Assembly (NCBI GenBank): GCA_001001485.1
Contig: LCKO01000001.1
Location: forward strand, 9,381-73,380
DNA: 64,000 nucleotides
Reading direction: 5' to 3'
From: Candidatus Collierbacteria bacterium GW2011_GWB2_45_17
GTDB lineage: Bacteria; Patescibacteriota; Microgenomatia; UBA1400; MFAQ01
Part shown: positions 42,580-59,426 of the stretch, piece after piece
Position numbering within the stretch: the first letter of the stretch is position 1
How the letters are laid out: each line of letters starts with the position of its first letter
Position numbers and translations under genes: made by a program
The notes under the pieces: model-generated
Databases searched by the model: none
What the model was told of the DNA's origin: nothing
What the model saw: the letters and a program-made list of their open reading frames with translations, nothing else

Positions 42580-42615
42580 GTCCTATCAACCAACAACTAA
42601 TAACAAAGAACTAAC

Positions 42616-43201: not shown

Positions 43202-43202
43202 A

Positions 43203-43430: not shown

Positions 43431-43431
43431 T

Positions 43432-43806: not shown

Positions 43807-43811
43807 CAATC

Positions 43812-43849
43812 GTCATTGCGAGTCTCGTATTCGAGCCGAAGCAATCCAG
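43812..43849. repeat. Hairpin repeat GTCATTGCGAGTCTCGTATTCGAGCCGAAGCAATCCAG between rplN and rplX
   Basis: Same family as the 16813 and 46920 elements. Confidence 0.6.
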
Positions 43850-43871
43850 AAAAAATAAAACTATAAAACAT

Positions 43872-44740: not shown

Positions 44741-44750
44741 AATATTTAAG

Positions 44751-44936
44751 ATGGCTAAAAAAAGCAAAATTGCTAAAACACTTAAACTTGCCGGTCACAG
44801 CACCCGTGATCACCGTCGTTGCCAGCTCTGCGGCCGACCTCGTGGTGTCATCCGTATCTTCGGTCTTTGCCGTCTCTGCTTCAGAGAAATGGCTCACCGA
44901 GGAGAGTTACCCGGTGTTTTCAAAATGTCAAAATAA
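44751..44936 (+). CDS. rpsN: 30S ribosomal protein S14, zinc-binding type Z
   Basis: 61 aa; CQLCGRP...CRLCFRE. Confidence 0.9.
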
Positions 44937-44937
44937 T

Positions 44938-45327
44938 ATGGATACTACCGCCGACTTTTTAACTATCATCCGCAATGGCTACCTCGCCAAAAAAGACACA
45001 GTGGTTGTCGAATTTTCCAAAGCCAGAGAGGAACTCACTAAGATTCTTAAGACAGAGGCTTTTATCGTCGATTACTCAGTCGAAAAAGCTAAACCCGTTA
45101 ACAAACTCATCATTAATCTTCGTTATTTCGACAAGGGCCTGCCTGCCGTTACCGGTATCAAGAAAATCACCAAACCTAGTGTCCGAATTTACTCTGGGTA
45201 CAATCAAATTCCACGAACTCTCTCCGGCGCCGGCACTACCATTCTGACTACCTCGGCTGGTTATATGACCGGCAAGACCGCTCGTGAAAAACATCTTGGC
45301 GGCGAAGTTATTTGTCAAATTTGGTAA
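44938..45327 (+). CDS. rpsH: 30S ribosomal protein S8
   Basis: S8 signature; start at MDTTADFLTIIRNG (the ORF-track ORF 44770-45327 has an over-extended 5' end). Confidence 0.85.
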   Translation: MDTTADFLTIIRNGYLAKKDTVVVEFSKAREELTKILKTEAFIVDYSVEKAKPVNKLIINLRYFDKGLPAVTGIKKITKPSVRIYSGYNQIPRTLSGAGTTILTTSAGYMTGKTAREKHLGGEVICQIW

Positions 45328-45330
45328 CAA

Positions 45331-45399
45331 ATACCAACTAAACTAACCATTAACCAATAACTAATAACCATTAACCAATAACTAAGCACTAATAACTAA
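45331..45399. repeat. AACTAA-rich low-complexity tract with two direct repeats of ACCATTAACCAATAACTAA
   Basis: Similar AACTAA(T/G)AAC tracts at 42581-42615, 43180-43202, 56971-57005 and 59385-59426. Confidence 0.45.
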
Positions 45400-45400
45400 C

Positions 45401-45952
45401 ATGAGCCGCATTGGACGAAAACCACTATATCTTCCCGAAACTGTCAAGCTTGAAACTTACGAGACCTCGTTGAAGTTCACCGGCCCGAAGGGTACTCTGG
45501 AATCAGTCGTTCCTAAAGGTATCAAGGTCGAAATCAAAGGTAGTGTTATAAACTTTACTAGAGACAACAACATACCGGCCACCCGTGCCCTACACGGCCT
45601 AGCTCGCCGATTAGCCCAGAACTGCGTTACTGGCGTCACCGACGGTTTTTCAAAAGACCTTCTGTTGGTCGGAACCGGTTATCGTGTTTCTCCTCACGCC
45701 GAAGGTCTTTCCTTCTCGGTCGGTTACTCTCATCCGGTTATTTTCAAAAAGGTTGAAGGTGTTACCATTACCACCGAAGGTCAAGATAAAATCAAGGTTA
45801 CCGGCATCGACAAACAACTGGTTGGCCAAGTCGCCGCCAATATCCGCGAGATTAGAAAACCCGAGCCTTACAAAGGCAAGGGGATTCGCTATGTCGACGA
45901 AGTCATCCTCAAGAAGCAAGGTAAAACAGCTACCAAAACCGCCGCCGTTTAA
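45401..45952 (+). CDS. rplF: 50S ribosomal protein L6
   Basis: L6 signature. Confidence 0.9.
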   Translation: MSRIGRKPLYLPETVKLETYETSLKFTGPKGTLESVVPKGIKVEIKGSVINFTRDNNIPATRALHGLARRLAQNCVTGVTDGFSKDLLLVGTGYRVSPHAEGLSFSVGYSHPVIFKKVEGVTITTEGQDKIKVTGIDKQLVGQVAANIREIRKPEPYKGKGIRYVDEVILKKQGKTATKTAAV

Positions 45953-45960
45953 AACCAAAA

Positions 45961-46332
45961 ATGAAAAAGCTAAACGATAAACAATCCAGAGCCGGCCGCA
46001 TCCGATCCAAATTGCTCGCCCGCACCACTCGTCCTCGTCTGACGGTCAGTCGTAGCAATCAAAATATTTTTGCCCAAATTATCGATCAAACCGGTAAGGT
46101 TCTGGCTGCCTTTGGTTCAGCGTCATTGCGAGGAGGTCGCCTCAGACGACCGACGAAGCAATCTATAAAAATGACCAAAACGGAAATGGCTACCGAAGTT
46201 GGTAAGAAACTTGGCGAAATAGCCAAAAACAAAAAAATTTCCACTGTCGTTTTTGATCGTGGTTCTTACCGTTTTCATGGCCGTGTCAAAACCCTCGCCG
46301 AAGCCGTCCGCGCCACCGGCATCAAATTCTAA
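45961..46332 (+). CDS. rplR: 50S ribosomal protein L18 carrying an in-frame hairpin-repeat insertion
   Basis: L18 core; the inserted segment SLRGGRLRRPTKQS is encoded by GTCATTGCGAGGAGGTCGCCTCAGACGACCGACGAAGCAATC. Confidence 0.85.
   Translation: MKKLNDKQSRAGRIRSKLLARTTRPRLTVSRSNQNIFAQIIDQTGKVLAAFGSASLRGGRLRRPTKQSIKMTKTEMATEVGKKLGEIAKNKKISTVVFDRGSYRFHGRVKTLAEAVRATGIKF
46122..46163. repeat. Hairpin repeat (GTCATTGCGAG...GAAGCAATC family) inside the rplR coding sequence, in frame
   Basis: Sequence identity to the intergenic copies. Confidence 0.6.
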
Positions 46333-46333
46333 C

Positions 46334-46368
46334 GTCATTCCGACCGAAGCGGAGGAATCTCACTCCAC
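46334..46368. repeat. Hairpin repeat GTCATTCCGACCGAAGCGGAGGAATCTCACTCCAC
   Basis: Same family as the 20253, 41852 and 46988 copies. Confidence 0.6.
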
Positions 46369-46396
46369 TAAATAAACAAATATAAAATAAAACAAA

Positions 46397-46915
46397 ATGG
46401 CCTACACAGGAAATACAAACAACAGCAATCGAGGCGGCGGTCGTCCGGCTCCAGAAGGCTTCGAACAAGTCCTTCAGATCCGTCGCGTCAGCAAGAAGAC
46501 TCAGGGTGGTACCAATGTCTCCTTCTCTGCGTTAGTGGTGACCGGGGACAAAAAAGGTAAAGTTGGTCTAGGTTTAGCCAAGGCTCCCAACGTCGCTGAT
46601 GCTATCAAAAAAGCCATTCGTCTCAGTAACCGAGACTTGGTTCAAGTTCCCCTGGTCGATGGTACTATCCCCTACGAAACCAACTCCAAGTACGGCGCCG
46701 CCAAAGTTCTTTTCCGCCCGGCTCCCAAGGGTACCGGTCTTATCGCCGGTTCATCCGTCCGCGCCGTGGTTGAAGCCGCCGGTATTACCGACATCGTTTG
46801 CAAGGTTTTGGGTACCAACAACAAGACCAGCAACGCCAGGGCTACTTTCAAAGCTCTCAAACAGATCGAAACTCTAGGTAAAAAATACCAATTGCTCAAA
46901 GCCCTGAGGGCGTAG
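46397..46915 (+). CDS. rpsE: 30S ribosomal protein S5
   Basis: S5 signature. Confidence 0.9.
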   Translation: MAYTGNTNNSNRGGGRPAPEGFEQVLQIRRVSKKTQGGTNVSFSALVVTGDKKGKVGLGLAKAPNVADAIKKAIRLSNRDLVQVPLVDGTIPYETNSKYGAAKVLFRPAPKGTGLIAGSSVRAVVEAAGITDIVCKVLGTNNKTSNARATFKALKQIETLGKKYQLLKALRA

Positions 46916-46919
46916 CCCC

Positions 46920-47022
46920 GTCATTGCGAGTTTCGGTACTCCGAACCGTGGCAATCCAGAACAATAAATATAATATACAAATTAATTGTCATCCCGAGCG
47001 AAGTCGAGGGATCTCACTCCAC
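46920..47022. repeat. Two hairpin repeats (GTCATTGCGAGTTTCGGTACTCCGAACCGTGGCAATCCAG and GTCATCCCGAGCGAAGTCGAGGGATCTCACTCCAC) occupying the position where rpmD (L30) would normally lie
   Basis: No L30-like ORF lies between rpsE and rplO. Confidence 0.6.
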
Positions 47023-47030
47023 AAAACAAT

Positions 47031-47483
47031 ATGAAAATGCTTTTATCCAATCTTCCCAAAATAATCGAAACTCCCAAAAAGCGCCTTGGACGAGGCTTTG
47101 GCTCTGGTGTCGGCGGTCACACCGTCGGACGTGGTCAAAAAGGTCAAAAAACCCGCGGTATTATCCCTCTTTGGTTTGAGGGCGGTCAGCTTCCCTTGGT
47201 CCGCCGGACTCCTTTCATCAAGGGTAAGCACCGTTTCCAGGTTATCAAGCCTCAGCCTATCACCGTCAACTTCGATCGCCTCGACAAGTTTGCCGAAAAC
47301 TCGGTCGTAGACGCCCTTTTCCTTGCCACTGCCCTCAAGGTGAGCGAGAAAGAAGCCAAGCGCGGCTTCAAGATTATCGCTACCGGTAAGCTCACCAAAC
47401 CCTTCCAAATCGCCGTCCCGGCCTCCGCGGGGGCCATCAAGGCTATTGAGAAGGCCGGCGGCAAGTTCCTCGCCTCCAAATAG
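47031..47483 (+). CDS. rplO: 50S ribosomal protein L15
   Basis: L15 signature; start at MKMLLSNL (the ORF-track 5' extension translates the repeat). Confidence 0.85.
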   Translation: MKMLLSNLPKIIETPKKRLGRGFGSGVGGHTVGRGQKGQKTRGIIPLWFEGGQLPLVRRTPFIKGKHRFQVIKPQPITVNFDRLDKFAENSVVDALFLATALKVSEKEAKRGFKIIATGKLTKPFQIAVPASAGAIKAIEKAGGKFLASK

Positions 47484-47566
47484 CGTCACCCCACTCTTGA
47501 CTTTAGACCTATAATTTGATATAGTTTCAGTATAGGTTCACACTAAAACTAACGTTGGAGGTAAAG

Positions 47567-47905
47567 ATGTACACTGTTGATGATTTTGCAAAGGATATGC
47601 ATGCGGATGTATGGGCGATTCGAGGCAGGCTCTTGGAAATAACTTCAAAATGTCTCCAATGGGGTGAATTAAGCGTCAAACACTTAAAGCTTAAGGATGC
47701 CAAAGTAGTTGGGAACGTGCTCTTTCTTCGCTTTGTTGCTAGCAACGATTATTTGGCGATTGATCCAGTTGAGAAAAGAATCTACCAGGCCAATTACGAT
47801 CTCAAGGAAGTTCCTGGAAAGCACGAGATAGATCTATCTATCATCAATAATATTTCCAAAGAGCTTAAAACTCGGTATTCAAAGGCTAGCCCTGTCAGCT
47901 TTTAA
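47567..47905 (+). CDS. Hypothetical protein A of the rplO|secY island (SD GGAGG)
   Basis: 113 aa from the Met at 47567 (the ORF-track ORF starts at 47555); SD then ATG; followed by a strong terminator. Confidence 0.45.
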   Translation: MYTVDDFAKDMHADVWAIRGRLLEITSKCLQWGELSVKHLKLKDAKVVGNVLFLRFVASNDYLAIDPVEKRIYQANYDLKEVPGKHEIDLSIINNISKELKTRYSKASPVSF

Positions 47906-47916
47906 ATATATGCAGA

Positions 47917-47946
47917 CAAAACCATTCCCCCCGGGAGTGGTTTTTT
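47917..47946 (+). terminator. Intrinsic terminator AAAACCATTCCCCCCGGGAGTGGTTTTTTG followed by a -10-like CTATAAT
   Basis: Long GC stem plus T-tract. Confidence 0.6.
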
Positions 47947-47988
47947 GCTATAATATCCCAGAACATTAAAATTCCAGGAGGTATACCC

Positions 47989-48417
47989 GTGTTTAACATT
48001 CGTTTTCAGAATCTACCCAAGCTTGTCTTTAACCCGCGCCTTTTCGCTTTTGAACCTGCCCATGTGGACACGCTCCGCCAAGTTATCGGCACACTCTTAA
48101 GATGCCCGCCGGAACTACCCCAACTCTTAATTGAAAGATCGGAGTGCTTTATTTTGGAAGACAAAAGCCTCGTAGCGGCCCCCGTACGGATTATCGTCGA
48201 GTGGTACTCTGAACGCCCTAGTTCCGACACTATTTTTGGCCTGGCTCTGGCCTTTTACAACTTTCTAAAAGCTTATGGCTTTGAAGCAGGTCTGACAGTC
48301 ATCTTTTCCGGTATTTCCGAAGGTGACGCCTTCATTGAGAAAGATGGTCGTTTGATTTCCGCTCCCCGTCTCCCCACTCCACATTTTAACTATCGTGGCT
48401 TTCAAGGCAAACGCTAA
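47989..48417 (+). CDS. Hypothetical protein B (GTG start, SD GGAGG)
   Basis: 142 aa ORF, no recognizable family. Confidence 0.45.
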   Translation: MFNIRFQNLPKLVFNPRLFAFEPAHVDTLRQVIGTLLRCPPELPQLLIERSECFILEDKSLVAAPVRIIVEWYSERPSSDTIFGLALAFYNFLKAYGFEAGLTVIFSGISEGDAFIEKDGRLISAPRLPTPHFNYRGFQGKR

Positions 48418-48426
48418 AGGAGATTT

Positions 48427-48801
48427 ATGAAATCTTTGCTCACCTTAAACAATCTCGGCTACGCCAGAGACGTTTCCGGGGGACCAGAATGTAATTGCGA
48501 CCTCGGGGTATTCATTTTCGCCTCCGAACAAAGCCTCAAAATACGCACCTATTTCTATCTGAAGAATCAGTCGGAAAAACAATTGGTCATCGGTAAGTTG
48601 GTGGATGGTGTCAATGATAGTGCGGATCTAGACCATGGCAAGCTAACCTTCAGGTTCGAAAGTAACGGACACGTTGAACTCTCCTGGGAAAACCAAGAAG
48701 GCCATCAAACTGCCACCTTCAATGAAATTGCTTTGGTCCAGCTTATGGAAGTCGAATGGGTCCGAACCCTCGTCAAAAACCGCACCGCCAGCTATCTCTA
48801 A
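48427..48801 (+). CDS. Hypothetical protein C (SD AGGAG)
   Basis: 124 aa ORF, no recognizable family. Confidence 0.45.
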   Translation: MKSLLTLNNLGYARDVSGGPECNCDLGVFIFASEQSLKIRTYFYLKNQSEKQLVIGKLVDGVNDSADLDHGKLTFRFESNGHVELSWENQEGHQTATFNEIALVQLMEVEWVRTLVKNRTASYL

Positions 48802-48807
48802 TCTTTA

Positions 48808-48833
48808 CGCCACCCTTCACTGGGTGGTTTTTG
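48808..48833 (+). terminator. Intrinsic terminator GCCACCCTTCACTGGGTGGTTTTTG followed by a -10-like TTACAAT
   Basis: GC stem plus T-tract. Confidence 0.55.
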
Positions 48834-48872
48834 TTACAATACTCGGGAACATTCAAATTTCAAGGAGGTCAA

Positions 48873-49469
48873 GTGGATAAAAATTCAATCCTTCATCAGA
48901 TCAACATCGATTTTTTTATACTTTCAGCCACTGTCGTTCAAGATCTCAAAATGATCGCTCTTTGCCGATCCCCTTACTACAAGCACCCTATTGGTTGTCC
49001 AAACTGGGATCACAAAGACGGTTGTCCGCCCCATACCAAACGTTTTTTATCAGTCTATGAGCCGACAGTTTACATCGCCATTGCTCGCTTGGATTTTGGT
49101 AAGTATCTGAAACTTAAAGAAAAAATTCATCCGGGGTGGACAGAGAAAGCTTTAAAAAACCCTCGTCACTGGCAAGGTCACCTAAGAGCCGCTCTCAGAA
49201 ATTTTCTAACTCCGGACAAAATCCACACCGGCTTCGAAATAGTTAAAAATGCGGAAGCCATGGGCATCAATTTGTTCGAAACCTGTGCCAATGCCGGCTT
49301 CGTTCTCGAAAGAGATCCGAAAAATTATGTTTGCCACCTTAATCTCTTGGCTAAACCCACCACCCCTCACCGGGTGGTTTTTTGTTTCGTGGCACCGTGT
49401 CACAGTGTTACCGTGCCACACACCTTATCATTCTCGACCGACTATAATTTAACAAATGGATCTTATTAG
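48873..49469 (+). CDS. Hypothetical Cys-rich protein D (GTG start after AGGAGG); its 3' end reads through a terminator hairpin
   Basis: CRSPYYKHPIGCPNWDHKDGCPP Cys/Pro motif. The upstream part of the ORF-track ORF 48756-49469 was rejected because it spans the preceding terminator and promoter. Confidence 0.4.
   Translation: MDKNSILHQINIDFFILSATVVQDLKMIALCRSPYYKHPIGCPNWDHKDGCPPHTKRFLSVYEPTVYIAIARLDFGKYLKLKEKIHPGWTEKALKNPRHWQGHLRAALRNFLTPDKIHTGFEIVKNAEAMGINLFETCANAGFVLERDPKNYVCHLNLLAKPTTPHRVVFCFVAPCHSVTVPHTLSFSTDYNLTNGSY
49353..49384 (+). terminator. Intrinsic terminator AAACCCACCACCCCTCACCGGGTGGTTTTTTG; followed by a second hairpin GTGGCACCG...CGTGCCAC and a -10-like TATAAT about 9 nt before the ATG at 49456
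   Basis: GC stem plus T-tract. Confidence 0.55.
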
Positions 49470-50343
49470 AAAAATTATTATGGATCTCTGCAAATTCTCT
49501 CCTCGTCAAGGAGAGAACGAGGTCAGAACTGCCCAGTATTTGGAGAACTTTTTGACTCAGAGAAAAATCAACTTCACTTCTCAGTATTTCAAAACCGAAA
49601 TCCCCAATGTTATTCACGCGGAACTCTATCTAGATGGCCAAAGGATACCATGTCTCGGAAAATCATTCGTCGGTGGCATGATTACTTCCAAGGATCAAAT
49701 CGATTTTAGTCCGTATTCAGACTATATCGAAACTATCACTTTTCGGCCCATTCCCACAGTTGCCATTTCCAGGACAAACGCTAAATTCCTAGAGAAAGCC
49801 AACCACGTCCGCGGGGAAGTTGTAGTTGAGAAATATTTATTCCAATCAAGAAACATATTAGTTGGCGATACCATTAATCCCAAAAAAATTATTTTTGCTC
49901 ACTACGATGGTCTTGGTGGGGGAGCAGTGGACAACGCTGGCAGTGTCGCCATTTGTCTCGAACTCTTAATTGAAAACCCTGAACTGTTATCCGAGAACTT
50001 ATTTGTTTTTGCTGGCAACGAAGAACTCAGTTACGACTCTGGAGACTACTGGGGCAAGGGCTACCGTGAATTTGAAAATGAATATCTCACCCTACTAAAA
50101 TCCGCTCTGGAGATTGTGGTTGTCGATGGCGTCGGGGTCAGCCCTCCTGTTATTGTTTCCGAAGACCGAGAAGATGTCTTTCCAATCAATCATTTCGACG
50201 AGTTCTCATCAAAAATTACCTGGCTTTCCAGCATCCAATCAGAAGTCCTCAAATGCTATCACTGTTTGGAAGATACACTTGACAAGTTAAATTTCGGCCA
50301 TTTCGAAGAAACCAGAAAAATGTTAGAAAAGATGTTAGGATAA
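49456..50343 (+). CDS. M28-family zinc peptidase-like protein
   Basis: IIFAHYDGLGGGAVDNAGSVAICLELL resembles the M28/M20 metal-binding segment; N-terminal region SPRQGENEVRTAQYLENFL as in aminopeptidases. Confidence 0.5.
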   Translation: MDLIRKIIMDLCKFSPRQGENEVRTAQYLENFLTQRKINFTSQYFKTEIPNVIHAELYLDGQRIPCLGKSFVGGMITSKDQIDFSPYSDYIETITFRPIPTVAISRTNAKFLEKANHVRGEVVVEKYLFQSRNILVGDTINPKKIIFAHYDGLGGGAVDNAGSVAICLELLIENPELLSENLFVFAGNEELSYDSGDYWGKGYREFENEYLTLLKSALEIVVVDGVGVSPPVIVSEDREDVFPINHFDEFSSKITWLSSIQSEVLKCYHCLEDTLDKLNFGHFEETRKMLEKMLG

Positions 50344-50346
50344 ATT

Positions 50347-50544
50347 ATGACCAATAAATTTAAAAACCTGAAGCCGTATATAGTCAGGACATCAGAAAAT
50401 AATGCATATACTATCCCGAAACTGGTAAGGGGGGAAAAACGCGATAAAATGATTTCCGAAATGGTTGAACTAATCAAAGAAAATAAGAAAATTATTGACG
50501 ATCTCAAATCATCCTCGAAACCAGATGGGTATCTTTTTGGATGA
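50347..50544 (+). CDS. AbrB/MazE-type (swapped-hairpin) antitoxin-like protein
   Basis: 65 aa; IVRTSENNAYTIPKLVRGE resembles SpoVT/AbrB DNA-binding antitoxins; immediately precedes and overlaps a PIN gene. Confidence 0.45.
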   Translation: MTNKFKNLKPYIVRTSENNAYTIPKLVRGEKRDKMISEMVELIKENKKIIDDLKSSSKPDGYLFG

Positions 50545-51094
50545 AAATTTCAAAGAATCAGTAAGAGGTAAATATTGCCTGTTGGATAATGATTTTCTTG
50601 GTGCCTTATTCAATGACAATTCTCTATTCCTTGCGATGAAGGACCTTTTAAATGACTATCCCTTTGTATACGATAATCTGACAAGTTTTGAATTCTTAAG
50701 AGATATCTATGTTCCTAGTCAGATAGTACTCAGGGAAAAATTTTTATCGAAGGATTTATTGTTTCCTCTCTCTGATCATCAAGAAATATATACAAAGACT
50801 CAAACCAATGCTCTCATCCTTTCCAAGATTTATGCCCAAAATAATTCAAAGTTAAATCAGAAGGGTTCAGCAAGTTTTACCGATATTTTTTTAGCTTCTA
50901 GATTAATGTCTTTGGGGAGTAAATACTTACTTATTACCGGAAATAAAAAAGACTTTCCCAATTATATCTTTGATACAAAAGGCATCATTACAAACGAGGA
51001 GGCAAGCGGAGCTCTAAGAAGCTACTCACTTCTATCATTTGATCCGGATAAATTTGATAAGTGTTTCAAGGAATTAGGCGGGGTGGGCAATTAA
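50525..51094 (+). CDS. PIN-domain nuclease-like toxin (VapC-like)
   Basis: CLLDNDFLGALFND near the N-terminus and LLITGNKKDF near the C-terminus fit the PIN acidic motifs. The ORF-track ORF starts at 50495; Met at 50525 chosen. Confidence 0.45.
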   Translation: MGIFLDENFKESVRGKYCLLDNDFLGALFNDNSLFLAMKDLLNDYPFVYDNLTSFEFLRDIYVPSQIVLREKFLSKDLLFPLSDHQEIYTKTQTNALILSKIYAQNNSKLNQKGSASFTDIFLASRLMSLGSKYLLITGNKKDFPNYIFDTKGIITNEEASGALRSYSLLSFDPDKFDKCFKELGGVGN

Positions 51095-51124
51095 ACCTAG
51101 AGCTGGTAGAATAAGAATCACGAC

Positions 51125-52405
51125 ATGAATACTTTATTAGCCCCCTTGCGCGCCTTATTCAAGATTAAAGATCTCAGGAATCGCCTTATTTTTACCGCGA
51201 TTATTATTGCTATTTTTCGTTTAGTGGCTCACATTCCGGCTCCCGGAATCAATTTAGCCGCTCTGAAACAGCTTTTTGATGGTTCTGCCTTCCTCTCCCT
51301 TCTTGATATTTTTTCTGGCGGTACGCTGACTAATTTTTCCGTCATGGCTCTTGGTCTTAATCCCTACATCAACGCCTCTATCATTATGCAGATGATGGGT
51401 ATGGTCGTTCCCAAGTTGGAAGAGCTGCAAAAAGAAGGGGACTATGGTCGCCAGAAAATTAATCAATACACTCGCCTTTTAACTATCCCTCTTTGTTTCT
51501 TTCAAGGGATCGCTTTAATATTTCTTCTTCGGGGTCAAGGACTTACCACCACCACCGATCCTCTAAAACTCGCCGCCATTGTCTTTACCCTCGCCGCCGG
51601 CACTTCATTTCTCATCTGGCTCGGTGAACAGCTCAACGACTATGGTGTGGGCAACGGTATTAGTTTGATTATCTTTGTCGGTATCGTTACCCGTTTGCCG
51701 GTCGCCGCCGCTCAAATGTTAGCCACTATTGACCCCACCAAAATATTTACTTACTTAATTTTTGCTTTTTTTGCTATCGCCTCGGTCTATGCCATTGTCC
51801 GCGTCGGCGAAGCCGTTCGCGAAGTTCCCATCCAATCGGCGAGACGCGGCGCCTCTTTTACCTCGACATTGGGCAATCACCTGCCTCTCCGTCTAAATCA
51901 AGCCGGCGTGATCCCGATTATCTTCGCTGTTTCTTTTATGTTGATTCCGAATCTTCTTGGTCGGGTCTTCGCCGGTTCTGGTCAAGCCTGGTTAGCCGGA
52001 GTCTCCCGAAACATTACTCTCTATTTGGCGCCGGAATCCATTCTTTATAATGCCCTCTACTTTGGTTTAGTAGTTGCCTTTTGTTATTTCTATACTGCCG
52101 TGGTTTTTAATCCCGAAAAAATCGCCAAGGATCTTCGTCAGTCCGGCTCTTTTATTCCCGGTATCCGTCCCGGTCCCAACACGGTTGATTACCTAAATTT
52201 TGTTCTAAATAGAATTACTTTGGTAGGAGCCTCATTTTTGGGTCTGGTGGCCGTCTTTCCCTCCATTATTTCCGGGATGACCGGCATTACCGGGTTGGCC
52301 ATCGGCGGCACCGGTATCTTAATCGTCGTCTCCGTCGTTCTGGAAATTCTTAAATCCATCAACTCTCAGCTCTACATGTACAGTTACGATAAATTTCTCG
52401 ACTAA
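51125..52405 (+). CDS. secY: Preprotein translocase SecY
   Basis: 10 TM helices, SecY signature. Confidence 0.9.
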
Positions 52406-52460
52406 AATGAAAATAATTTCAGCAAGACTAGTCTCTGGCTAGCAAGTGACAAATCAATAA

Positions 52461-53294
52461 ATGGTCAAGAAAAGATACAATCTCAAAGTTAAAGGCCTTG
52501 AAATAAGTATTTTTCAAATAGACAACTCTGATTACGTTTCCCTTACCGATATGGCCAAGTACAAAGATATTTTTAGAAGCGATTATATTTTGCAAAATTG
52601 GATTAGAGGCAAGCATGTCATAGAGTTTCTCGGACTATGGGAAAAACTTTACAACAAAAACTTTAAACCCATCGAATTCGATGGGTTTATGTCAGAGTCA
52701 GGGTCAAACAGTTTTGTCCTGACACCAAAAAAGTGGATCGAGAAAACAAATGCCATCGGTATTATTTCCAGAGTTGGTCGGGGGGGAGGAACCTATGCCC
52801 ACAAAGATATTGCCTTTGAGTTTGCTTCATGGATAAGTGTTGAATTTAAACTATATCTTATTAAAGAATTTCAAAGACTCAAAGAAGAAGAGGGTCTTCG
52901 GTTAGAACAAGGTTGGGATACCAAGCGCACTCTTGCCAAAATAAATTACAAAATTCACACCGATTCTATCAAAGAACATATCATTCCCACAGTTATACCA
53001 AAAACCAAGTCGAGTACAATTTACGCCAACGAAGCAGACGTATTAAACGTAGCTTTATTTGGTCAAACAGCCAAAGATTGGCGAGTAAAAAATCCAAACA
53101 AAGATGGCAATATTCGAGACTACGCTAATGTAATGCAACTAATCATCTTGGTCAATCTGGAAAGTTTTAATGCTGAACTAATTAGGCGAGGTATTTCACA
53201 ATCTGTAAGGTTAGTTGAATTAAACAAAGTTGCAATCTTTCAAGCAAGATCGTTAATAGGTAACAGCCAAATTAATAAAATAGGTAAAATATAA
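52461..53294 (+). CDS. KilA-N domain protein
   Basis: GGTYAHKDIAFEFASWISVEFKLYLIKEF is the conserved KilA-N core. Confidence 0.6.
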   Translation: MVKKRYNLKVKGLEISIFQIDNSDYVSLTDMAKYKDIFRSDYILQNWIRGKHVIEFLGLWEKLYNKNFKPIEFDGFMSESGSNSFVLTPKKWIEKTNAIGIISRVGRGGGTYAHKDIAFEFASWISVEFKLYLIKEFQRLKEEEGLRLEQGWDTKRTLAKINYKIHTDSIKEHIIPTVIPKTKSSTIYANEADVLNVALFGQTAKDWRVKNPNKDGNIRDYANVMQLIILVNLESFNAELIRRGISQSVRLVELNKVAIFQARSLIGNSQINKIGKI

Positions 53295-53296
53295 AT

Positions 53297-53857
53297 ATGA
53301 ACATCATTATTCTCGGTCCACAAGGATCCGGCAAGGGCACTCAAGCCCAGTTACTGGCCGAAAAATTTGGTTTAACCAATATTTCTTCCGGAAAACTTCT
53401 TCGTGAGGAAGCCAAAAATGATACCGAAAAAGGCAGATTGGTTGCCGACCTTCTCACTACCGGCGCTCTTCTTCCCTTCGACACCGTCCTTGAAGTCACC
53501 GAGCCAGTACTACTTCAGGCAAAATCCGGATTTATTATCGATGGCACCCCGCGAGACTTAATGCAAGCTGAGTATCTTGATTGGTATCTATTAGAGCGTC
53601 AGATAAATATCGACAAGGTGATCCTTCTGAACATTCCTAGAGAAGTTAGTCTGGATAGACTGTCCAAAAGAGCCAAAATTGAAAACCGCTCCGATGATAC
53701 TCCGGAAGCCATTCACGAAAGACTGGATATTTACGAGAGAGAAACCCTTCCCGTTGTCGAGTATTATCGAAAACAAGGAAAACTTATCGAAATCGATGGT
53801 ACCCCCGATATTCAAAGTATCTTCCTAGACATTGTCACCAAACTATCCACCAAATGA
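53297..53857 (+). CDS. adk: Adenylate kinase
   Basis: GPQGSGKGTQ P-loop; 186 aa. Confidence 0.9.
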   Translation: MNIIILGPQGSGKGTQAQLLAEKFGLTNISSGKLLREEAKNDTEKGRLVADLLTTGALLPFDTVLEVTEPVLLQAKSGFIIDGTPRDLMQAEYLDWYLLERQINIDKVILLNIPREVSLDRLSKRAKIENRSDDTPEAIHERLDIYERETLPVVEYYRKQGKLIEIDGTPDIQSIFLDIVTKLSTK

Positions 53858-54588
53858 CCAAACTTCAAGTTATGACCGAAGGCGGCAAGCGTCTGGGTCG
53901 GATCAAAAGTCAGTTGGCTGATATGGTCAAAGAAGGTGTTACTCCTCTGGAAATTGATAATTTTGCCGAGAAACTCATTAGTGAAGGAGGAGATAAACCT
54001 TCATTCAAGATGGTTCAGGGCTACAAGTACTCTACCTGTATCAATATCAACGCCGGCATGGTTCATGGAATCCCCGGGAAAACCCCTTTTAGACCAGGTG
54101 ATGTAGTCAAAGTAGATATGGGACTTTTTCATGAAGGTTATCATCTTGATACCTCCACCACCATTCAAATTCCTCCTTATACCCCTGAAGTCAGCAAATT
54201 CCTTAAGGTCAGCCAAGAGTCTCTCAAAGCCGCTATCTTTGCCGCCACTCCCGGTAACACTGTTTACGACCTTGGAGTGGCCATGCAGACCGTGGCGGAA
54301 AGCGCGGGCTACAACGTCATTCGTGACCTCACCGGCCATGGGATCGGCCGTCAGCTTCACATGGAGCCTTTTATTCCTTGCTTCGCCGACAAGAGAAACA
54401 AGAAGTTTGTTCTGGCCGTAGACCAGACCGTGGCTATCGAGGCTATGGTAACTATGGGGGACTGGCATCTGGTCGAAGATCCGGACGGCTGGACTCTGTC
54501 TACCCAAGACGGCTCTCTCACGGCCATGTTCGAAGAAACCGTCTACCTCACCCCCAACGGTCCCCTCATCCTCACCGCCGTGTGTTAA
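53854..54588 (+). CDS. map: Methionine aminopeptidase type I
   Basis: Pita-bread fold motifs. Confidence 0.85.
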   Translation: MTKLQVMTEGGKRLGRIKSQLADMVKEGVTPLEIDNFAEKLISEGGDKPSFKMVQGYKYSTCININAGMVHGIPGKTPFRPGDVVKVDMGLFHEGYHLDTSTTIQIPPYTPEVSKFLKVSQESLKAAIFAATPGNTVYDLGVAMQTVAESAGYNVIRDLTGHGIGRQLHMEPFIPCFADKRNKKFVLAVDQTVAIEAMVTMGDWHLVEDPDGWTLSTQDGSLTAMFEETVYLTPNGPLILTAVC

Positions 54589-54630
54589 AATACCCATCTT
54601 CTCGCAACTTAAAATTATAGGAGGCTTCCC

Positions 54631-55008
54631 GTGTCCAAAAACAAAGTTCTTGTCCTTCATTCCGCAGACAGTTCTGCTCGAGCCGAAACTTTCAAAAAAT
54701 GGCTGGAAAACCTGGATTTTAGTGTTTCAACCATGAACGACTTAAACAAATCAGAATCCGAGTCCGCCTACCGTCTTTTACAAAAAGCGATCGAAGGAAA
54801 CGATCGTGTTGTTATCTTGGTTTCCACCGGGATTTTTAACAGTTGTGTTCTGAGGTTTGGTATAGGCTACGCCCTCGGTGCCGGCAAGAAGATAGTCTCA
54901 GTCGTCAAGGACACCGATAGGGTTATTATGCCCTCTTGGTACGCCAATCTATTTGTACCGTTAAATAGCTACGACGAGGGCGAAATCTGGTCCAAACTGA
55001 AAAAATAA
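54631..55008 (+). CDS. Small TIR-like / SLOG (nucleoside 2-deoxyribosyltransferase-like) fold protein
   Basis: KVLVLHSADSS (TIR beta-A-like), then DRVVILVSTGIFNSCVLRFGIGYALGAGKKIV; SD AGGAGG with GTG start; own terminator. Confidence 0.4.
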   Translation: MSKNKVLVLHSADSSARAETFKKWLENLDFSVSTMNDLNKSESESAYRLLQKAIEGNDRVVILVSTGIFNSCVLRFGIGYALGAGKKIVSVVKDTDRVIMPSWYANLFVPLNSYDEGEIWSKLKK

Positions 55009-55012
55009 CTTC

Positions 55013-55037
55013 CCAGCCCCCGAAAGGGGGCTTTTTC
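55013..55037 (+). terminator. Intrinsic terminator AGCCCCCGAAAGGGGGCTTTTT
   Basis: 7-bp GC stem, GAAA loop, T-tract. Confidence 0.65.
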
Positions 55038-55105
55038 TAGCCAAGATTAGCCACTAGCCTAAGCAATATTTGACATTCCGTACACATCGTCATAATATAT
55101 AAGTA

Positions 55106-55402
55106 GTGAAATTTGACTGGAATCCAGACAAAAACAAGCTTTTAAAATTAACCAGAGGGATTGATTTTCAATCAATTGTGCGGGCCATAAAGAAAAAGAA
55201 GGTCTTGTTAGATACGCCACACTTTGATCAAATCAGGTATCCAAAACAAAGAATATTAATTATTTCTATCAAAAGTTACGCCTATATTGTCCCATATGTT
55301 CAAAATGGACCAACACGATTTTTAAAAACTATTTATCCAAGTCGCCGATATTATAAAAAATATTTAAAAAATGCCCAAAAAGCCAAAATTCGATCCCTTT
55401 AA
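55106..55402 (+). CDS. BrnT toxin (DUF497), second copy
   Basis: MKFDWNPDKNKLLKLTRGIDFQSIV...RILIISIKSYAY...FLKTIYPSRRYYKKY. Confidence 0.65.
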   Translation: MKFDWNPDKNKLLKLTRGIDFQSIVRAIKKKKVLLDTPHFDQIRYPKQRILIISIKSYAYIVPYVQNGPTRFLKTIYPSRRYYKKYLKNAQKAKIRSL

Positions 55403-55673
55403 AAACCTAGTTCTGGACGAGTACGAACAAGAATTGGAAGATAGTATCCCAGACGACATTGTATTAACTCCACCCTCACCAGCTAGGCTTGCTATACTCA
55501 AGAAAGCCGCCGAAAATACTCTCAGAGACTTAGAACTTCAAAAAAAGAGCAAAAACATCAATTTGAGAGTCACCGAGGCCACCTTTCGCAACCTAAAATC
55601 AAAGGCCACCAGGCTCGGTTTGCCATATCAAACTCTAGCCTCTAGTATTCTTCACCAATACTCCAGTAAATAG
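55371..55673 (+). CDS. BrnA antitoxin, second copy
   Basis: INLRVTEATFRNLKSKATRLGLPYQTLASSILHQY. Confidence 0.65.
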   Translation: MPKKPKFDPFKNLVLDEYEQELEDSIPDDIVLTPPSPARLAILKKAAENTLRDLELQKKSKNINLRVTEATFRNLKSKATRLGLPYQTLASSILHQYSSK

Positions 55674-55738
55674 TACCCAAATTAGCCACTAGTCAAATGT
55701 GGCTAACTTTGGTACAATACCGTTTGCACAACTAAAAT

Positions 55739-55957
55739 ATGGCTAAAAACCAGATGACTGAGGTAAACGGAGTCGTCTCCGAGTCGCTACCCAATATGCA
55801 GTTTCGGGTAACTCTCGAAGATGGCAGAGAAATCTTGGCTCATCTTGCTGGCAGAATGCGGCTTCATCGCATTCGCGTCATGCCCGGGGACAAAGTAAAG
55901 CTCGAAATGAGCGAATACGACCTGGACAAAGGCAGGATAGTTTACAGATCAAGCTAG
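55739..55957 (+). CDS. infA: Translation initiation factor IF-1
   Basis: S1-like OB fold; 72 aa. Confidence 0.9.
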
Positions 55958-56003
55958 ATTCCGTTTCACTCACCAATAATTATTTAAATAAACTAAAACG
56001 CGC

Positions 56004-56117
56004 ATGCGGGTTCAATCGTCCGTCAGACCTCGTTGCAAGAATTGCAAAATTATTAAACGCCATGGTAAGGTGTTGGTCATTTGTACCAATCCCCGCCATA
56101 AACAACGCCAAGGATAA
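56004..56117 (+). CDS. rpmJ: 50S ribosomal protein L36 (not in the ORF track; found by manual translation)
   Basis: ATGCGGGTTCAATCG... translates to [37 protein letters not shown]. Confidence 0.8.
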
Positions 56118-56120
56118 CCC

Positions 56121-56546
56121 ATGCCCAGACTTTCCGGTATCGATATTCCCAACGAAAAAAGAATTGATATCTCTCTAACCTATATCTATGGTGTCGGTGA
56201 TATGGTCGCCAAAGATATCCTCAAAAAATCCAAGGTGGCTCCTCATATTCGTACCAAAGATCTCTCCGGAGAAGAGTTAAAAAGTATTCAAACTGTCTTA
56301 GACACTCTCCCCACCGAAGGAGAACTTCGTAAAATGGTGCGCGATAATATCGAAACTCTCAAAAGAATTCAAGCCTACCGAGGGACAAGACACTCTATGG
56401 GTCTTCCGGTTAGAGGCCAACGGACCAAAACCAACGCCCGTACCAGAAAAGGCAAGCGAAAGACCATTGGTGCTATCTCCAAAGAAGCCTCTACCGCTAT
56501 CTCCCCCGCTCCGGCCGCCAAGGCTCCTGTAGCCAAAAAGAAATAA
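56121..56546 (+). CDS. rpsM: 30S ribosomal protein S13
   Basis: S13 signature. Confidence 0.9.
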   Translation: MPRLSGIDIPNEKRIDISLTYIYGVGDMVAKDILKKSKVAPHIRTKDLSGEELKSIQTVLDTLPTEGELRKMVRDNIETLKRIQAYRGTRHSMGLPVRGQRTKTNARTRKGKRKTIGAISKEASTAISPAPAAKAPVAKKK

Positions 56547-56556
56547 CTAAAACCAC

Positions 56557-56970
56557 ATGCCAGAAGAAAAACCCATCATCAAACCGGTCTTAAAAAACAA
56601 AAAAGCCTCCGCCATTCATTTTAAAAGCGGTCAGGGTAAAATGTATGTCAAGTCTACCTTCAATACAACCTATGTTACTTTTACCGACACCACGGGCAAC
56701 ACTGTTTGTTGGAGTAGCGCCGGCACTTGTGGTTTCAAAGGGGCCAAGAGATCCACTCCGTTTGCGGCTACCACCATTATTGAAGAAGGTCTTCGAAAAG
56801 CCAAAACTCTAGGCCTAACTAACATCGATGTCTATCTCAAAGGCCCCGGACCAGGGAAAGACGCCGCTCTTCGTGTTCTAAAGACCTCCGGTGCCGAAAT
56901 CAATATGCTGGCCGACACCACTCCCATTCCCCACAACGGCTGTCGCCCCAGAAAACATCGCCGAGTCTAA
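56557..56970 (+). CDS. rpsK: 30S ribosomal protein S11
   Basis: S11 signature. Confidence 0.9.
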   Translation: MPEEKPIIKPVLKNKKASAIHFKSGQGKMYVKSTFNTTYVTFTDTTGNTVCWSSAGTCGFKGAKRSTPFAATTIIEEGLRKAKTLGLTNIDVYLKGPGPGKDAALRVLKTSGAEINMLADTTPIPHNGCRPRKHRRV

Positions 56971-57005
56971 ACCAAGAACTAATAACCAATAACTAAAAAT
57001 AAAAC

Positions 57006-57629
57006 ATGGCCAAATACATCGATCCCAAATGCAGACTTTGTCGCCGAGAAGGTGAAAAGCTTTATTTGAAAGGTGCCCGTTGTTTCACCCCCAAATGTCC
57101 CATTGAAAAAAGAGGCGGTCAAATCCCCGGTCAGCACGGCAAAAAAAGAACCCGTGGTCGTATTTCCGGCTATGGCATTCAGCTTCGTGAAAAACAAAAG
57201 GCCAAACGCCTTTATGGTGTTCTCGAAGGCCAGTTCCATCGCTACTACGAGCTCGCTATCAAATCAAAAGACAACACCGCCGAAATGTTGGTCCAGCTCT
57301 TGGAATCCCGTTTAGACAATATCTGTTACCGCCTAGGTTTTACTCTTTCCAGATCACTTGCTCGTCAATTAGTTACTCATGGCAACGTTCTGGTCGATGG
57401 TAAAAAGGTCGATGTACCCTCATTTCAAACCAAACCCGGTATGATTATCTCTCTTCCTGCCCATGCCGCTAAGTTCGACTTTGTCGCTCCTAATCTGATC
57501 GAAAAAAATGCCCCCGCCAAGTGGCTTTCTCGTGTGGGCACACAGGGTAAAATCGACCGTCTACCAGGAAGAGACGAAGTTGGCACGGACATGAAGACCA
57601 ATCTCATTATTGAGTTCTACTCAAGATAA
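57006..57629 (+). CDS. rpsD: 30S ribosomal protein S4
   Basis: S4 signature. Confidence 0.9.
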   Translation: MAKYIDPKCRLCRREGEKLYLKGARCFTPKCPIEKRGGQIPGQHGKKRTRGRISGYGIQLREKQKAKRLYGVLEGQFHRYYELAIKSKDNTAEMLVQLLESRLDNICYRLGFTLSRSLARQLVTHGNVLVDGKKVDVPSFQTKPGMIISLPAHAAKFDFVAPNLIEKNAPAKWLSRVGTQGKIDRLPGRDEVGTDMKTNLIIEFYSR

Positions 57630-58557: not shown

Positions 58558-58563
58558 CACAAC

Positions 58564-59423: not shown

Positions 59424-59426
59424 TAT

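What the first reader, a model, noticed from the sequence alone, without database searches (positions are those of the whole stretch)
47555..55008. Two classes of genes: host genes lack Shine-Dalgarno sites, acquired genes have canonical GGAGG
None of the ribosomal-protein, rpoB/rpoC, secY, adk, tuf or fusA starts has an SD. In contrast 31802, 32339 (MttB), 33840, 47567, 47989, 48427, 48873, 54631 and 60058 all have AGGAGG/GGAGG at 6-9 nt. Most are also followed by long-GC-stem intrinsic terminators. The TA genes (HigBA, BrnTA), KilA-N, Bro-N and DinD-like genes lack SDs like the host. SD presence is therefore a practical marker separating a recently imported gene class, from an SD-using donor, from older accessory genes. 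It also raises the question of how efficiently these genes are translated in an SD-independent host.
Basis: seen in the sequence. Interest (0 to 1): 0.6.

Follow-up and report, generated by a model that had tools for sequence, protein, structure and literature searches.

The report
Shine-Dalgarno-led accessory genes in Collierbacteria
In this tiny-genome groundwater bacterium (Candidatus Collierbacteria) almost all genes start translation without the classical ribosome-binding site. A small set of fast-evolving accessory genes wedged between the ribosomal-protein genes keeps a perfect one, and this looks like a long-standing habit of the lineage, not a leftover of recent gene import.

Summary
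Nine of 84 genes in the window have a strong SD (AGGAGG, GGAGG or AAGGAG, 4-8 nt before the start; duplex energy -8.8 or lower). The other 75 are above -7.5, and all 38 core genes are above -6 (background 1.9%, P=4e-5).

The window is a Candidatus Collierbacteria (Microgenomates, CPR) contig. The nine genes form seven self-contained units: sigma-70 -10 box, 25-40 nt unstructured leader, SD, one or two ORFs, intrinsic terminator. They sit in variable gaps of the rpoBC/str/S10/spc/alpha ribosomal gene block.

"Recently imported from an SD-using donor" is mostly not supported.
- Orthologues in other Collierbacteria species (42-87% protein identity) occupy the same gaps and keep both SD and leader.
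- Non-homologous genes share one promoter/leader module, TAnAAT-N5-6-AG(A/T)ACATT...GGAGG.
- Pooled codon usage tracks the core, and the low-GC outliers are the SD-less toxin-antitoxin (TA), KilA-N and Bro-N genes.
- One family is SD-led in one clade and leaderless in another.
- Only MttB shows foreign (Chloroflexota-like) ancestry, and that predates the species splits.

Host genes use leaderless starts or A-rich, G-poor upstream regions.

The 16S anti-SD could not be read. I rate this a new variant of known mixed initiation regimes, of moderate interest.

The parts
31758..32272 (+). Unit 1. -10 box TATAAT at 31758-31763; leader starting AGTACATTTCCAA at 31770; SD GGAGG at 31791-31795; ORF 31802-32233 (143 aa, no Pfam match); terminator at 32244-32272.
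32291..34354 (+). Unit 2. -10 box TATAAT at 32291; leader AGTACATTTCCAA at 32303; SD AAGGAGG at 32328-32334; MttB-family gene 32339-33796; second SD AAGGAG at 33830-33835; ORF 33840-34328 (162 aa); terminator at 34327-34354.
47497..47946 (+). Unit 3. Promoter TTGACT-17-TATAGT at 47497-47525; SD GGAGG at 47557-47561; ORF 47567-47905 (112 aa); terminator at 47918-47946.
47949..48832 (+). Unit 4. -10 box TATAAT at 47949; leader AGAACATTAAAA at 47960; SD AGGAGG at 47976-47981; GTG-start ORF 47989-48417 (142 aa); SD AAGGAG at 48417-48422; ORF 48427-48801 (124 aa); terminator at 48809-48832.
48835..49469 (+). Unit 5. -10 box TACAAT at 48835; leader GGAACATTCAAA at 48846; SD AAGGAGG at 48862-48868; GTG-start ORF 48873-49469 (weak DUF2284 match, Cys-rich). 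The ancestral terminator at 49360-49383 now lies inside the ORF; orthologues stop at about codon 164.
54586..55036 (+). Unit 6. -10 box TAAAAT at 54586, overlapping the end of map; SD AGGAGG at 54619-54624; GTG-start ORF 54631-55008 (125 aa, weak TIR-like match); terminator at 55015-55036.
60024..60489 (+). Unit 7. -10 box TACAAT at 60024, followed by the conserved ACCCCATAACCCA; SD AGGAGG at 60046-60051; TTG-start ORF 60058-60462 (134 aa). The non-ATG start (TTG, or GTG in one) is kept in four other species. Terminator at 60469-60489.
20870..59903 (+). Host block rpoB-rpoC-S12-S7 | fusA-tuf-S10...L15 | secY | adk-map | infA-L36-S13-S11-S4-rpoA-L17-L13-S9. It holds 38 core genes, none with an SD. 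Their upstream 30 nt are 49% A and 9% G, with AATAA and ACTAA enriched about 10-fold.
49443..50343 (+). Example of the leaderless class: TATAAT, then 7 nt, then ATG of the 295-aa M28-like gene. The same signature is seen at 964(-), 1045, 3753, 6224, 17975, 19058, 29023, 34861, 35197 and 63368.

Best explanation
The window comes from a Candidatus Collierbacteria genome that uses three ways of starting translation.

1. First genes of many transcription units are leaderless. A TAnAAT -10 box ends 6-8 nt before the ATG.
2. Operon-internal housekeeping genes, including all ribosomal-protein genes, have no SD. They rely on A-rich, G-poor, unstructured upstream sequence.
3. About 10% of genes are classical leadered mRNAs. 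These are small, fast-evolving, mostly orphan accessory genes. Each unit has an extended -10 promoter, a C-rich discriminator, an unstructured 25-40 nt leader that often begins AG(A/T)ACATT, a strong SD with consensus AAGGAGGT placed 4-8 nt before the start, one or two ORFs, and its own intrinsic terminator.

The class 3 units sit co-directionally in variable gaps between highly conserved translation genes: S7|fusA, L15|secY, map|infA, after S9, after pnp and, in a relative, beside the 5S rRNA gene.

The SDs most likely work in the ordinary way, by pairing with a canonical, accessible anti-SD tail of the host 16S rRNA. This would also explain why GTG and TTG starts are tolerated in this class. 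The SD is therefore a maintained, lineage-resident expression signal of one gene class and not a donor relic.

Shown here: the motifs, their spacing, their conservation, the shared module and the terminators. Inferred: the pairing with 16S rRNA, the transcription start points and actual expression.
For: -
- SD energies fall into a strong group (nine genes at -8.8 or lower) and a weak group, with only two genes in between at -7.1 and -7.2, and the enrichment is significant.
- Orthologues in other species keep the SD while neighbouring bases diverge.
- The SD flanks are enriched for A at -1 and -2 and T at +1 compared with 785 other GGAGG sites. That gives AAGGAGGT, the exact complement of ACCUCCUU.
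- The promoter/leader module recurs before at least 10 non-homologous ORFs in at least 9 species. Thirteen of 29 exact metagenome hits carry the full module with SD and ORF.
- All seven units end in a terminator.
- Leaders are no more structured than shuffled sequences, with z from -0.06 to +1.04.
- TAnAAT boxes show a positional peak 6-8 nt before starts in 69 of 956 genes.
- Core upstream regions are A-rich and G-poor.
- Non-ATG starts make up 4 of 9 SD-led genes against 5 of 75 others (P=0.006), and 23 of 62 SD-led starts across the Collierbacteria loci.
- Pooled codon usage is close to the core.
- Published work reports that the anti-SD motif is missing only in a Parcubacteria subgroup among CPR, and that bS21 is often absent in Collierbacteria (PMC9297842).
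Against: - The 16S rRNA 3' end of this organism was never seen. There is no rRNA in the window and no 16S signature in any of the 130 loci fetched by then. In a related genome the rRNA operon is tRNA-23S-5S without a 16S gene.
- No transcription-start, ribosome-profiling or proteomic data were available.
- Gene starts rest on ORF heuristics and orthologue alignment.
- The related loci are homologous regions, so counts across them are not independent.
- Per-gene codon scores of the SD genes are intermediate between the core and the low-GC accessory genes, not core-like.
- MttB really is of foreign origin.
- Only about 84 kb of this genome was scanned, so 'about 10% of genes' and the preference for ribosomal-operon gaps may not hold genome-wide.
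Confidence: 0.68

Rival explanations
1. The SD-led genes were recently imported from SD-using donors and still carry the donors' ribosome-binding sites. The SD is a decaying relic that marks recent arrivals.
For: - MttB is 70-72% identical to many Chloroflexota/Anaerolineales proteins, and those genes carry SDs.
- The SD-led genes lie in variable gaps whose content differs between species.
- Their per-gene codon scores are not fully core-like.
Against: - SD and leader are conserved in orthologues at the same sites down to 42% protein identity.
- MttB is at the same S7|fusA site with the same leader in three further Collierbacteria contigs, and that leader is unlike the donor-type upstream regions.
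- The same promoter/leader module precedes non-homologous genes.
- The 47989 family and P0121 have essentially no relatives elsewhere.
- The SD-less accessory genes are compositionally more foreign.
Confidence: 0.1
2. The host ribosome is largely blind to SD sequences, as in Bacteroidia. The conserved SDs then define a small regulon that is translated only by a special ribosome population or state in which the anti-SD is exposed. The shared AGAACATT leader would add a second, common control point.
For: - Core genes lack SDs and have A-rich upstream regions, as in Bacteroidia (PMC6028130).
- In Flavobacterium the few SD genes are read by bS21-less ribosomes (PMC9976891 and PMC13000453, abstracts seen).
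- The leader's 5' end is conserved beyond what a promoter plus SD requires.
Against: - bS21, a key part of the Bacteroidia sequestering pocket, is reported as usually absent in Collierbacteria (PMC9297842).
- About 10% of genes are SD-led, far more than the one or two in Flavobacterium.
- The SD-led genes have no common function that would suggest a regulon.
- Nothing here bears directly on ribosome states.
Confidence: 0.12
3. The SD-like motifs are chance matches, or artefacts of wrongly chosen starts or of assembly.
For: - Starts were chosen partly by looking for the best SD, which can inflate counts. Several internal matches are of this kind.
Against: - The background rate is 1.9% against 10.7% observed (P=3.7e-5).
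- All nine starts agree with the N-termini of orthologues.
- The nine are intergenic, each following a promoter, with a terminator at the end of each unit.
- The same arrangement is present on 24 or more independently assembled contigs.
Confidence: 0.02

Closest known systems
Bacteroidia-type SD-independent initiation (GeneMarkS-2 group B; anti-SD sequestered by bS21/bS18/bS6, with rare SD genes such as rpsU and prfB)
   Same: Nearly all housekeeping genes lack an SD and have A-rich, G-poor upstream regions. A small minority of genes has strong SDs, even though the lineage is thought to keep the canonical anti-SD.
   Different: - The SD minority here is about 10% of the genes scanned and consists of orphan accessory genes with their own promoters and terminators, not an autoregulated ribosomal protein.
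- bS21 is reported as mostly absent in Collierbacteria, so the same sequestration pocket is unlikely.
- Leaderless starts are also common.
- The organism is a CPR bacterium, not a member of the FCB group.
Leaderless-rich bacteria (GeneMarkS-2 group C: Actinobacteria, Deinococcus)
   Same: The Pribnow box lies 6-8 nt from the start codon of first genes in operons.
   Different: In group C the remaining genes use SD sites. Here the operon-internal genes use no SD, and SDs are confined to a special accessory class.
Accessory-gene hot spots between conserved core genes (genomic islets, recombination-driven insertion hot spots)
   Same: The gaps L15|secY (564-6339 nt, 1-9 ORFs) and map|infA (63 nt to several kb) vary strongly between species, while the flanking genes are 75-97% identical.
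   Different: - The hot spots lie inside the ribosomal-protein gene block.
- No integrase, tRNA target or flanking direct repeat was noticed. They were not searched for systematically.
- Many inserts carry a common lineage-specific promoter/leader/SD module.
Integron gene cassettes
   Same: Arrays of short, unrelated, co-directional ORFs are separated by similar hairpin-containing spacers.
   Different: Each ORF has its own promoter. The hairpins are ordinary intrinsic terminators with T-runs, not attC sites. No integrase or attI is present in the window.

Membership tests
Shine-Dalgarno-led initiation sites | Purine-rich motif with a GGAG or GAGG core, 4-10 nt upstream of the start codon | tested here: met
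   All nine sites match, with spacers of 4-8 nt. Across the Collierbacteria loci, 62 sites have spacers peaking at 4-6 nt.
Shine-Dalgarno-led initiation sites | Positional enrichment over background | tested here: met
   Nine of 84 genes against 1.9% at internal start codons (P=3.7e-5). The SD core shows a peak 4-7 nt upstream of starts in 956 genes.
Shine-Dalgarno-led initiation sites | Complementarity to the 3' tail of the organism's own 16S rRNA | not testable with these tools
   No 16S gene is in the window or in any locus checked. Indirect support comes from the flank consensus AAGGAGGT, the complement of ACCUCCUU, and from the literature on CPR anti-SD.
Shine-Dalgarno-led initiation sites | Evolutionary conservation of the motif in orthologues | tested here: met
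   A GGAG or GAGG core is kept in 5 of 5 genes of the 60058 family, 9 of 9 genes at the map|infA site, 4 of 4 MttB loci and all SD-clade members of the 48873 family.
Leaderless mRNAs | -10 box ending about 6-8 nt before the start codon, with no room for a ribosome-binding site | tested here: met
   TAnAAT has a sharp positional peak at spacers of 6-8 nt in 69 of 956 genes. Individual genes are listed.
Leaderless mRNAs | Mapped transcription start at or within a few nt of the start codon | not testable with these tools
   No transcriptome data are available.
Bacteroidia-like SD-blind translation | A-rich upstream region in place of an SD for most genes | tested here: met
   The upstream 30 nt of 37 core genes are 49% A and 9% G, against 29% and 20% for the window.
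Bacteroidia-like SD-blind translation | Anti-SD sequestered by bS21, bS18 and bS6 | not testable with these tools
   The literature reports bS21 as often absent in Collierbacteria. rpsU could not be looked for outside the 84 kb read.
Recently horizontally acquired genes | Composition and codon usage deviate from the host core | tested here: inconclusive
   Pooled codon usage (RSCU) correlates with the core at 0.86-0.92 and GC3 is 0.47 against 0.50 for the core. Per-gene log-ratios are intermediate, from -0.14 to +0.12, against a core mean of +0.15 and a low-GC accessory mean of -0.13.
Recently horizontally acquired genes | Closest relatives lie in another phylum | tested here: not met
   This is met only for MttB (70-72% identity to Chloroflexota proteins), whose closer relatives (80-87%) are syntenic Collierbacteria genes. 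The 47989 family has 6 representatives in 1.84e9 proteins. P0121 has none beyond its own cluster.
Recently horizontally acquired genes | Absent from sister species at the same locus | tested here: not met
   Seven of the nine genes have syntenic orthologues in at least one other species. Presence is patchy, however.
Integron cassettes | Promoterless ORFs with attC sites next to an integrase and attI | tested here: not met
   Every unit has its own -10 box. The hairpins are terminators with T-runs. No gene in the window or its flanks carries an integrase or recombinase Pfam domain in the annotations seen.

The most novel reading that the evidence does not exclude
Collierbacteria may keep a dedicated expression channel for a pool of fast-evolving orphan genes. 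It would consist of a common promoter and leader (TGnTAnAAT-AyCCy-AGAACATTyMMA) plus a strong SD. The genes are parked in recombination hot spots flanked by ultra-conserved translation genes. The conserved 5' end of the leader, together with SD-dependence in an otherwise SD-free genome, would let the cell switch this whole set on or off together. The switch could be a leader-binding factor or a change in anti-SD accessibility.
Probability: 0.15. Interest if true: 0.7.

Novelty: new variant of a known kind. Interest (0 to 1): 0.45.

Why it matters
Translation initiation in the Candidate Phyla Radiation has hardly been studied. Four full-text searches found no paper on SD usage or leaderless initiation in Microgenomates or Patescibacteria.

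Three practical and conceptual points follow from this window.
- One CPR lineage combines leaderless, A-rich non-SD and SD-led initiation, and the SD is reserved for lineage-specific accessory genes. This bears on gene calling in CPR genomes assembled from metagenomes. Several public gene calls for these very loci mis-start or miss the SD-led ORFs. For example, 47989 and 54631 are uncalled in L001, and 48873 is called from an upstream ATG.
- It is a warning against reading an SD as a signature of horizontal transfer.
- It gives an easily testable set of native promoter/leader/SD/terminator parts for a group that has no genetic tools.

The ribosomal-operon hot spots, with their orphan genes diverging far faster than the flanks (SecY 92% against 54-59% identity for 47989 and 48427 in L004), may point to genes involved in host interaction or defence.

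Tried and rejected
- **16S anti-SD.** Rfam found no RNA family in the window. Searches for universal 16S signatures in all 130 loci found nothing. A metagenome hit beside an rRNA operon was followed up, but that operon is tRNA-23S(with LAGLIDADG intron)-5S without a 16S gene. A search with the intron endonuclease gave only same-type homologues with no usable taxonomy and was not pursued. The supplement of PMC9297842 is not held.
- **Phage or defence origin of the SD-led genes.** There were no PHROGs hits. PADLOC gave a weak TIR-like (ThsB) hit for 54631 and a marginal LmuA hit for 33840. No close relatives of three of the proteins were found in IMG/VR. All six viral matches to the leader pattern lack an SD and ORF and look like chance.
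- **Riboswitch-like structure in the leaders.** Rejected: folding z-scores run from -0.06 to +1.04.
- **Integron-like cassette array.** Rejected: each unit has its own promoter and ordinary terminator, and there is no integrase.
- **SD depletion on the coding strand as evidence for a working anti-SD.** Rejected: by my own rough estimate, not a tool result, the strand asymmetry of GGAG (179 against 335) is about what the GC skew of the window would produce.
- **Structure prediction of the orphan proteins.** Not attempted. Only single sequences would have been accepted, and that usually gives poor models.

Full report
**Origin of the window.** The SecY protein encoded at 51125-52405 is found unchanged on at least 24 independently assembled contigs. 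One of them is DPQI01000022.1 of assembly GCA_003539025.1. Its nearest relatives in a species-level genome collection are almost all labelled Candidatus Collierbacteria (Microgenomates, Candidate Phyla Radiation), with SecY identity of 73-92%. The window carries the gene block rpoB-rpoC-S12-S7 / fusA-tuf-S10...L15 / secY / adk-map / infA...S9. This block is interrupted by accessory genes. Housekeeping genes lie on both sides.

**Check of the observation.** I enumerated every GGAGG, AAGGAG and AGGAG on both strands, together with any start codon and ORF that follows. I also scored the 17 nt upstream of every candidate start against ACCUCCUUU.
- Of the other 75 curated genes, two are weakly SD-like (-7.1 and -7.2) and 73 are above -6.
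- No core gene has an SD.
- At internal in-frame start codons the same threshold is reached in 1.9% of cases, so 9 of 84 gives P=3.7e-5.
- Within the rpoB-to-S9 block, 9 of 20 accessory genes are SD-led against 0 of 38 core genes (P=1.6e-5).
- Reading 10 kb beyond each end of the window added 22 genes. One more is SD-led, a 146-aa ORF without a Pfam match just after pnp. nusA, infB, S15, pnp, recA, recX, rny, HU, miaA and miaB all lack an SD.

**Anatomy of the SD-led genes.** The nine genes form seven units. Each begins with a sigma-70 -10 box, often in the extended TGn form, followed by a C-rich stretch of 5-6 nt. A leader of 25-40 nt comes next, then the SD, then one or two ORFs. Each unit ends in a G+C-rich hairpin of -10.9 to -16.0 kcal/mol followed by a T-run. 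All units point the same way as the ribosomal genes. Four of the nine starts are GTG or TTG, against 5 of 75 for the other genes (P=0.006). The products are 112-198 aa, apart from MttB at 485 aa. The 112-198 aa products have no significant family match. The weak exceptions are DUF2284 for 48873, TIR-like for 54631 and a marginal tail-sheath-domain hit for 60058.

**Evidence from related genomes.** I compared the window proteins with 32 related Collierbacteria loci.
- The 48873 family lies in the L15|secY gap in 14 of those loci, and in further metagenome contigs.
- The 47989-48427 pair is present in a species whose SecY is 92% identical, yet the pair itself is only 54-59% identical.
- The 54631 family recurs after map, and the 60058 family after S9.
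- In every close-clade orthologue a GGAG or GAGG core is kept at the same distance from the start, while the neighbouring bases differ.
- The 60058 family keeps a non-ATG start (TTG, or GTG in one species) and the upstream box TAnAAT-ACCCCATAACCCA in five species, at only 42% protein identity.
- In the more distant clade (SecY 75-80% identical) the 48873 family sits at the same place without an SD. There a TAAAAT box ends 7-12 nt (mostly 7-9) before the ATG, which is the leaderless signature.

The mode of initiation is thus a property of the local promoter and leader. It changes within one gene family.

**A shared promoter/leader module.** The upstream regions of non-homologous SD-led genes align with one another. 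The order is a terminator hairpin, TG-n-TAnAAT, A/T-y-C-C-y, AG(A/T)ACATT(y)(m)(m)A, 4-25 variable nt, GGAGG, then 4-8 nt to the start. The module occurs twice in the S7|fusA island (31802 and MttB) and twice in the L15|secY gap of the window. It occurs up to three times in a row in other species.

An exact search for TATAATAYCCYAGAACATT in public metagenome contigs gave 29 stretches. Thirteen matches carry the full module with an SD and an ORF of 53-323 aa. Most of these are in the L15|secY gap of Collierbacteria contigs. One gene, present on two contigs, lies beside the 5S rRNA gene of a roughly 1.09-Mb Collierbacteria contig. The remaining hits, and all six viral hits, lack an SD and ORF and look like chance matches. 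The leaders fold no better than shuffled sequences, which fits an exposed SD. Why the first dozen transcribed bases are conserved remains unexplained.

**How the host genes start.** Across 956 ORFs from the window and the Collierbacteria loci, TAnAAT boxes pile up with their end 6-8 nt before the start codon (69 genes). In the window this applies to RNase J, recA, the HigA-like and BrnT-like genes, the M28-like gene at 49456 and others. The 30 nt upstream of 37 core genes are 49% A and 9% G, with AATAA and ACTAA about tenfold enriched. These two patterns correspond to the leaderless (group C) and non-SD (group B) categories of GeneMarkS-2 (PMC6028130). Here they occur combined in one genome.

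**Test of the 'recent import' reading.** MttB is the one clear case of foreign ancestry. It is 70-72% identical to many proteins labelled Chloroflexota or Anaerolineales, and one such homologue (P0013, 71%) sits in a typical multi-MttB/corrinoid-protein cluster. Its closest relatives (80-87%), however, are on other Collierbacteria contigs. There they lie at exactly the same S7|fusA position with the same radical-SAM and aminotransferase neighbours. They also have the same leader...ATAATcacgccAG(C/T)ACATTTCCAATTTATTCTTCCAAAGGAGGCT. That leader is shared with the unrelated neighbour 31802 and is unlike the upstream regions of the Chloroflexota-type genes. The transfer therefore predates the species splits, and the expression signals are of the resident type.

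For the orphan genes no donor pool is visible. The 47989 family has 6 representatives among 1.84 billion clustered proteins. The SD-led gene beside the 5S rRNA gene has none outside its own cluster.

On composition, the pooled SD genes have GC3 of 0.47 (core 0.50), and their pooled codon usage (RSCU) correlates with the core at 0.92, or 0.86 without MttB. The SD-less accessory genes (TA pairs, KilA-N, Bro-N, HNH and others) have GC3 of 0.38 and a correlation of 0.41. Gene by gene, the SD genes are intermediate, not fully core-like. Composition therefore does not prove that they are native, but it gives no support for ranking them as the most recent arrivals.

**Is the SD functional?** I could not read the 16S 3' end. 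Indirect evidence points to a canonical, usable anti-SD.
- The SDs are conserved in orthologues.
- Their flanks are biased to A at -1 (56% against 20% at 785 other GGAGG sites), A at -2 (48% against 28%) and T at +1 (46% against 27%). This gives AAGGAGGT, the complement of ACCUCCUU.
- Non-ATG starts are concentrated in this class.
- A survey of CPR ribosomes found the anti-SD motif lacking only in a Parcubacteria subgroup, and bS21 frequently absent in Collierbacteria (PMC9297842). bS21 is part of the pocket that hides the anti-SD in Bacteroidia (PMC7797042 and PMC9976891, abstracts seen).

Probably they are translated perfectly well, but this is an inference.

**The gaps as hot spots.** The L15|secY gap ranges from 564 to 6339 nt and holds 1-9 ORFs across the Collierbacteria loci. 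The map|infA gap ranges from 63 nt to several kb. Roughly 40% of the ORFs in the L15|secY gaps are SD-led. In the 84 kb of this genome that I read, 9 of 10 SD-led genes lie inside the ribosomal block (P=0.02 against the rest). This is a small and biased sample.

**Verdict.** The two-class observation is correct and statistically solid. The class boundary is real, with core genes on one side and a subset of accessory genes on the other. The best-supported picture is a resident, conserved, SD-led expression format for fast-evolving accessory genes, in a genome that otherwise starts translation without an SD. Mixed regimes of this sort are known in Bacteroidia, Actinobacteria and elsewhere. I therefore rate this a new variant of a known kind, of moderate interest. 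The shared leader module and the ribosomal-operon hot spots are the parts most worth following up.

Noticed in passing
window 20253-20287, 41852-41886, 46334-46368, 46988-47022 (weaker copy near 2176): A dispersed repeat of about 35 nt, gTCATcCCGAgCGaAGtcGAG-GGATCTCACTCCAC. The pattern gives 5 matches against 0.46 expected by chance. Copies lie before rpoB, inside the 3' end of the L22 gene, in the L18|S5 gap and in the S5|L15 gap, where the missing L30 gene would normally be. In two of the copies (20274 and 46355) an SD-like arm (GGAG) is predicted to pair with an anti-SD-like arm (CUCC). The repeat was found only in this genome's own contigs among the loci held.
   Followed up: partly
window 48873-49469: The ORF reads through its own ancestral terminator (49360-49383) and overlaps the next gene. 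It is 198 aa, against 164-175 aa in orthologues, so the original stop codon has apparently been lost.
   Followed up: partly
window 32339-33796, with 29861-31683 on the minus strand: An MttB-family methyltransferase of Chloroflexota-like ancestry sits between S7 and fusA. No Pfam-recognisable corrinoid-binding gene lies beside it; the downstream ORF at 33840 has no family match. It is conserved together with a divergently oriented radical-SAM/aminotransferase pair in several Collierbacteria. This is an odd metabolic addition for a CPR genome.
   Followed up: partly
window 5484-6067, 34498-35139, 55106-55673; also 6671-7498, 52461-53294, 60511-61329: There are two Gp49(HigB-like)/HTH pairs, a BrnT/BrnA-like pair, and three KilA-N or Bro-N proteins. 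All have low GC (GC3 about 0.38), lack an SD, and mostly carry a leaderless-type -10 box. Compositionally they are the most foreign genes of the window.
   Followed up: partly
L129 11596-16040 (related Collierbacteria genome, contig of about 1.08 Mb): The rRNA operon is tRNA-23S-5S without a linked 16S gene, and the 23S gene carries a LAGLIDADG homing-endonuclease intron. Two SD-led orphan genes and an S1-domain protein lie next to it.
   Followed up: partly
window, upstream of rpoC, L16, S17, L6, S4 and S9; also nusA in L089 around 2000: The upstream regions of ribosomal and other core genes contain tandem AAyAACTAA units, for example ccaataactaataactaaaATG. They are G-free and provide stop codons in several frames. 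This may be a specific non-SD ribosome-loading motif and not merely A-richness.
   Followed up: partly
L001 and L003 gene calls compared with the window at 47989, 48873, 54631 and 60058: Public gene calls for identical DNA disagree. The GTG- or TTG-start SD-led ORFs are missed, extended from an upstream ATG, or replaced by an antisense ORF in some assemblies. Gene finders tuned to the SD-less majority appear to mishandle this class.
   Followed up: no
L004 compared with the window (L15|secY gap): Accessory proteins diverge much faster than their flanks. SecY is 92% and L15 88% identical, while 47989 is 54%, 48427 is 59% and 54631 is 55% identical. This suggests rapid evolution, or exchange of divergent alleles by recombination in the conserved flanks.
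   Followed up: no
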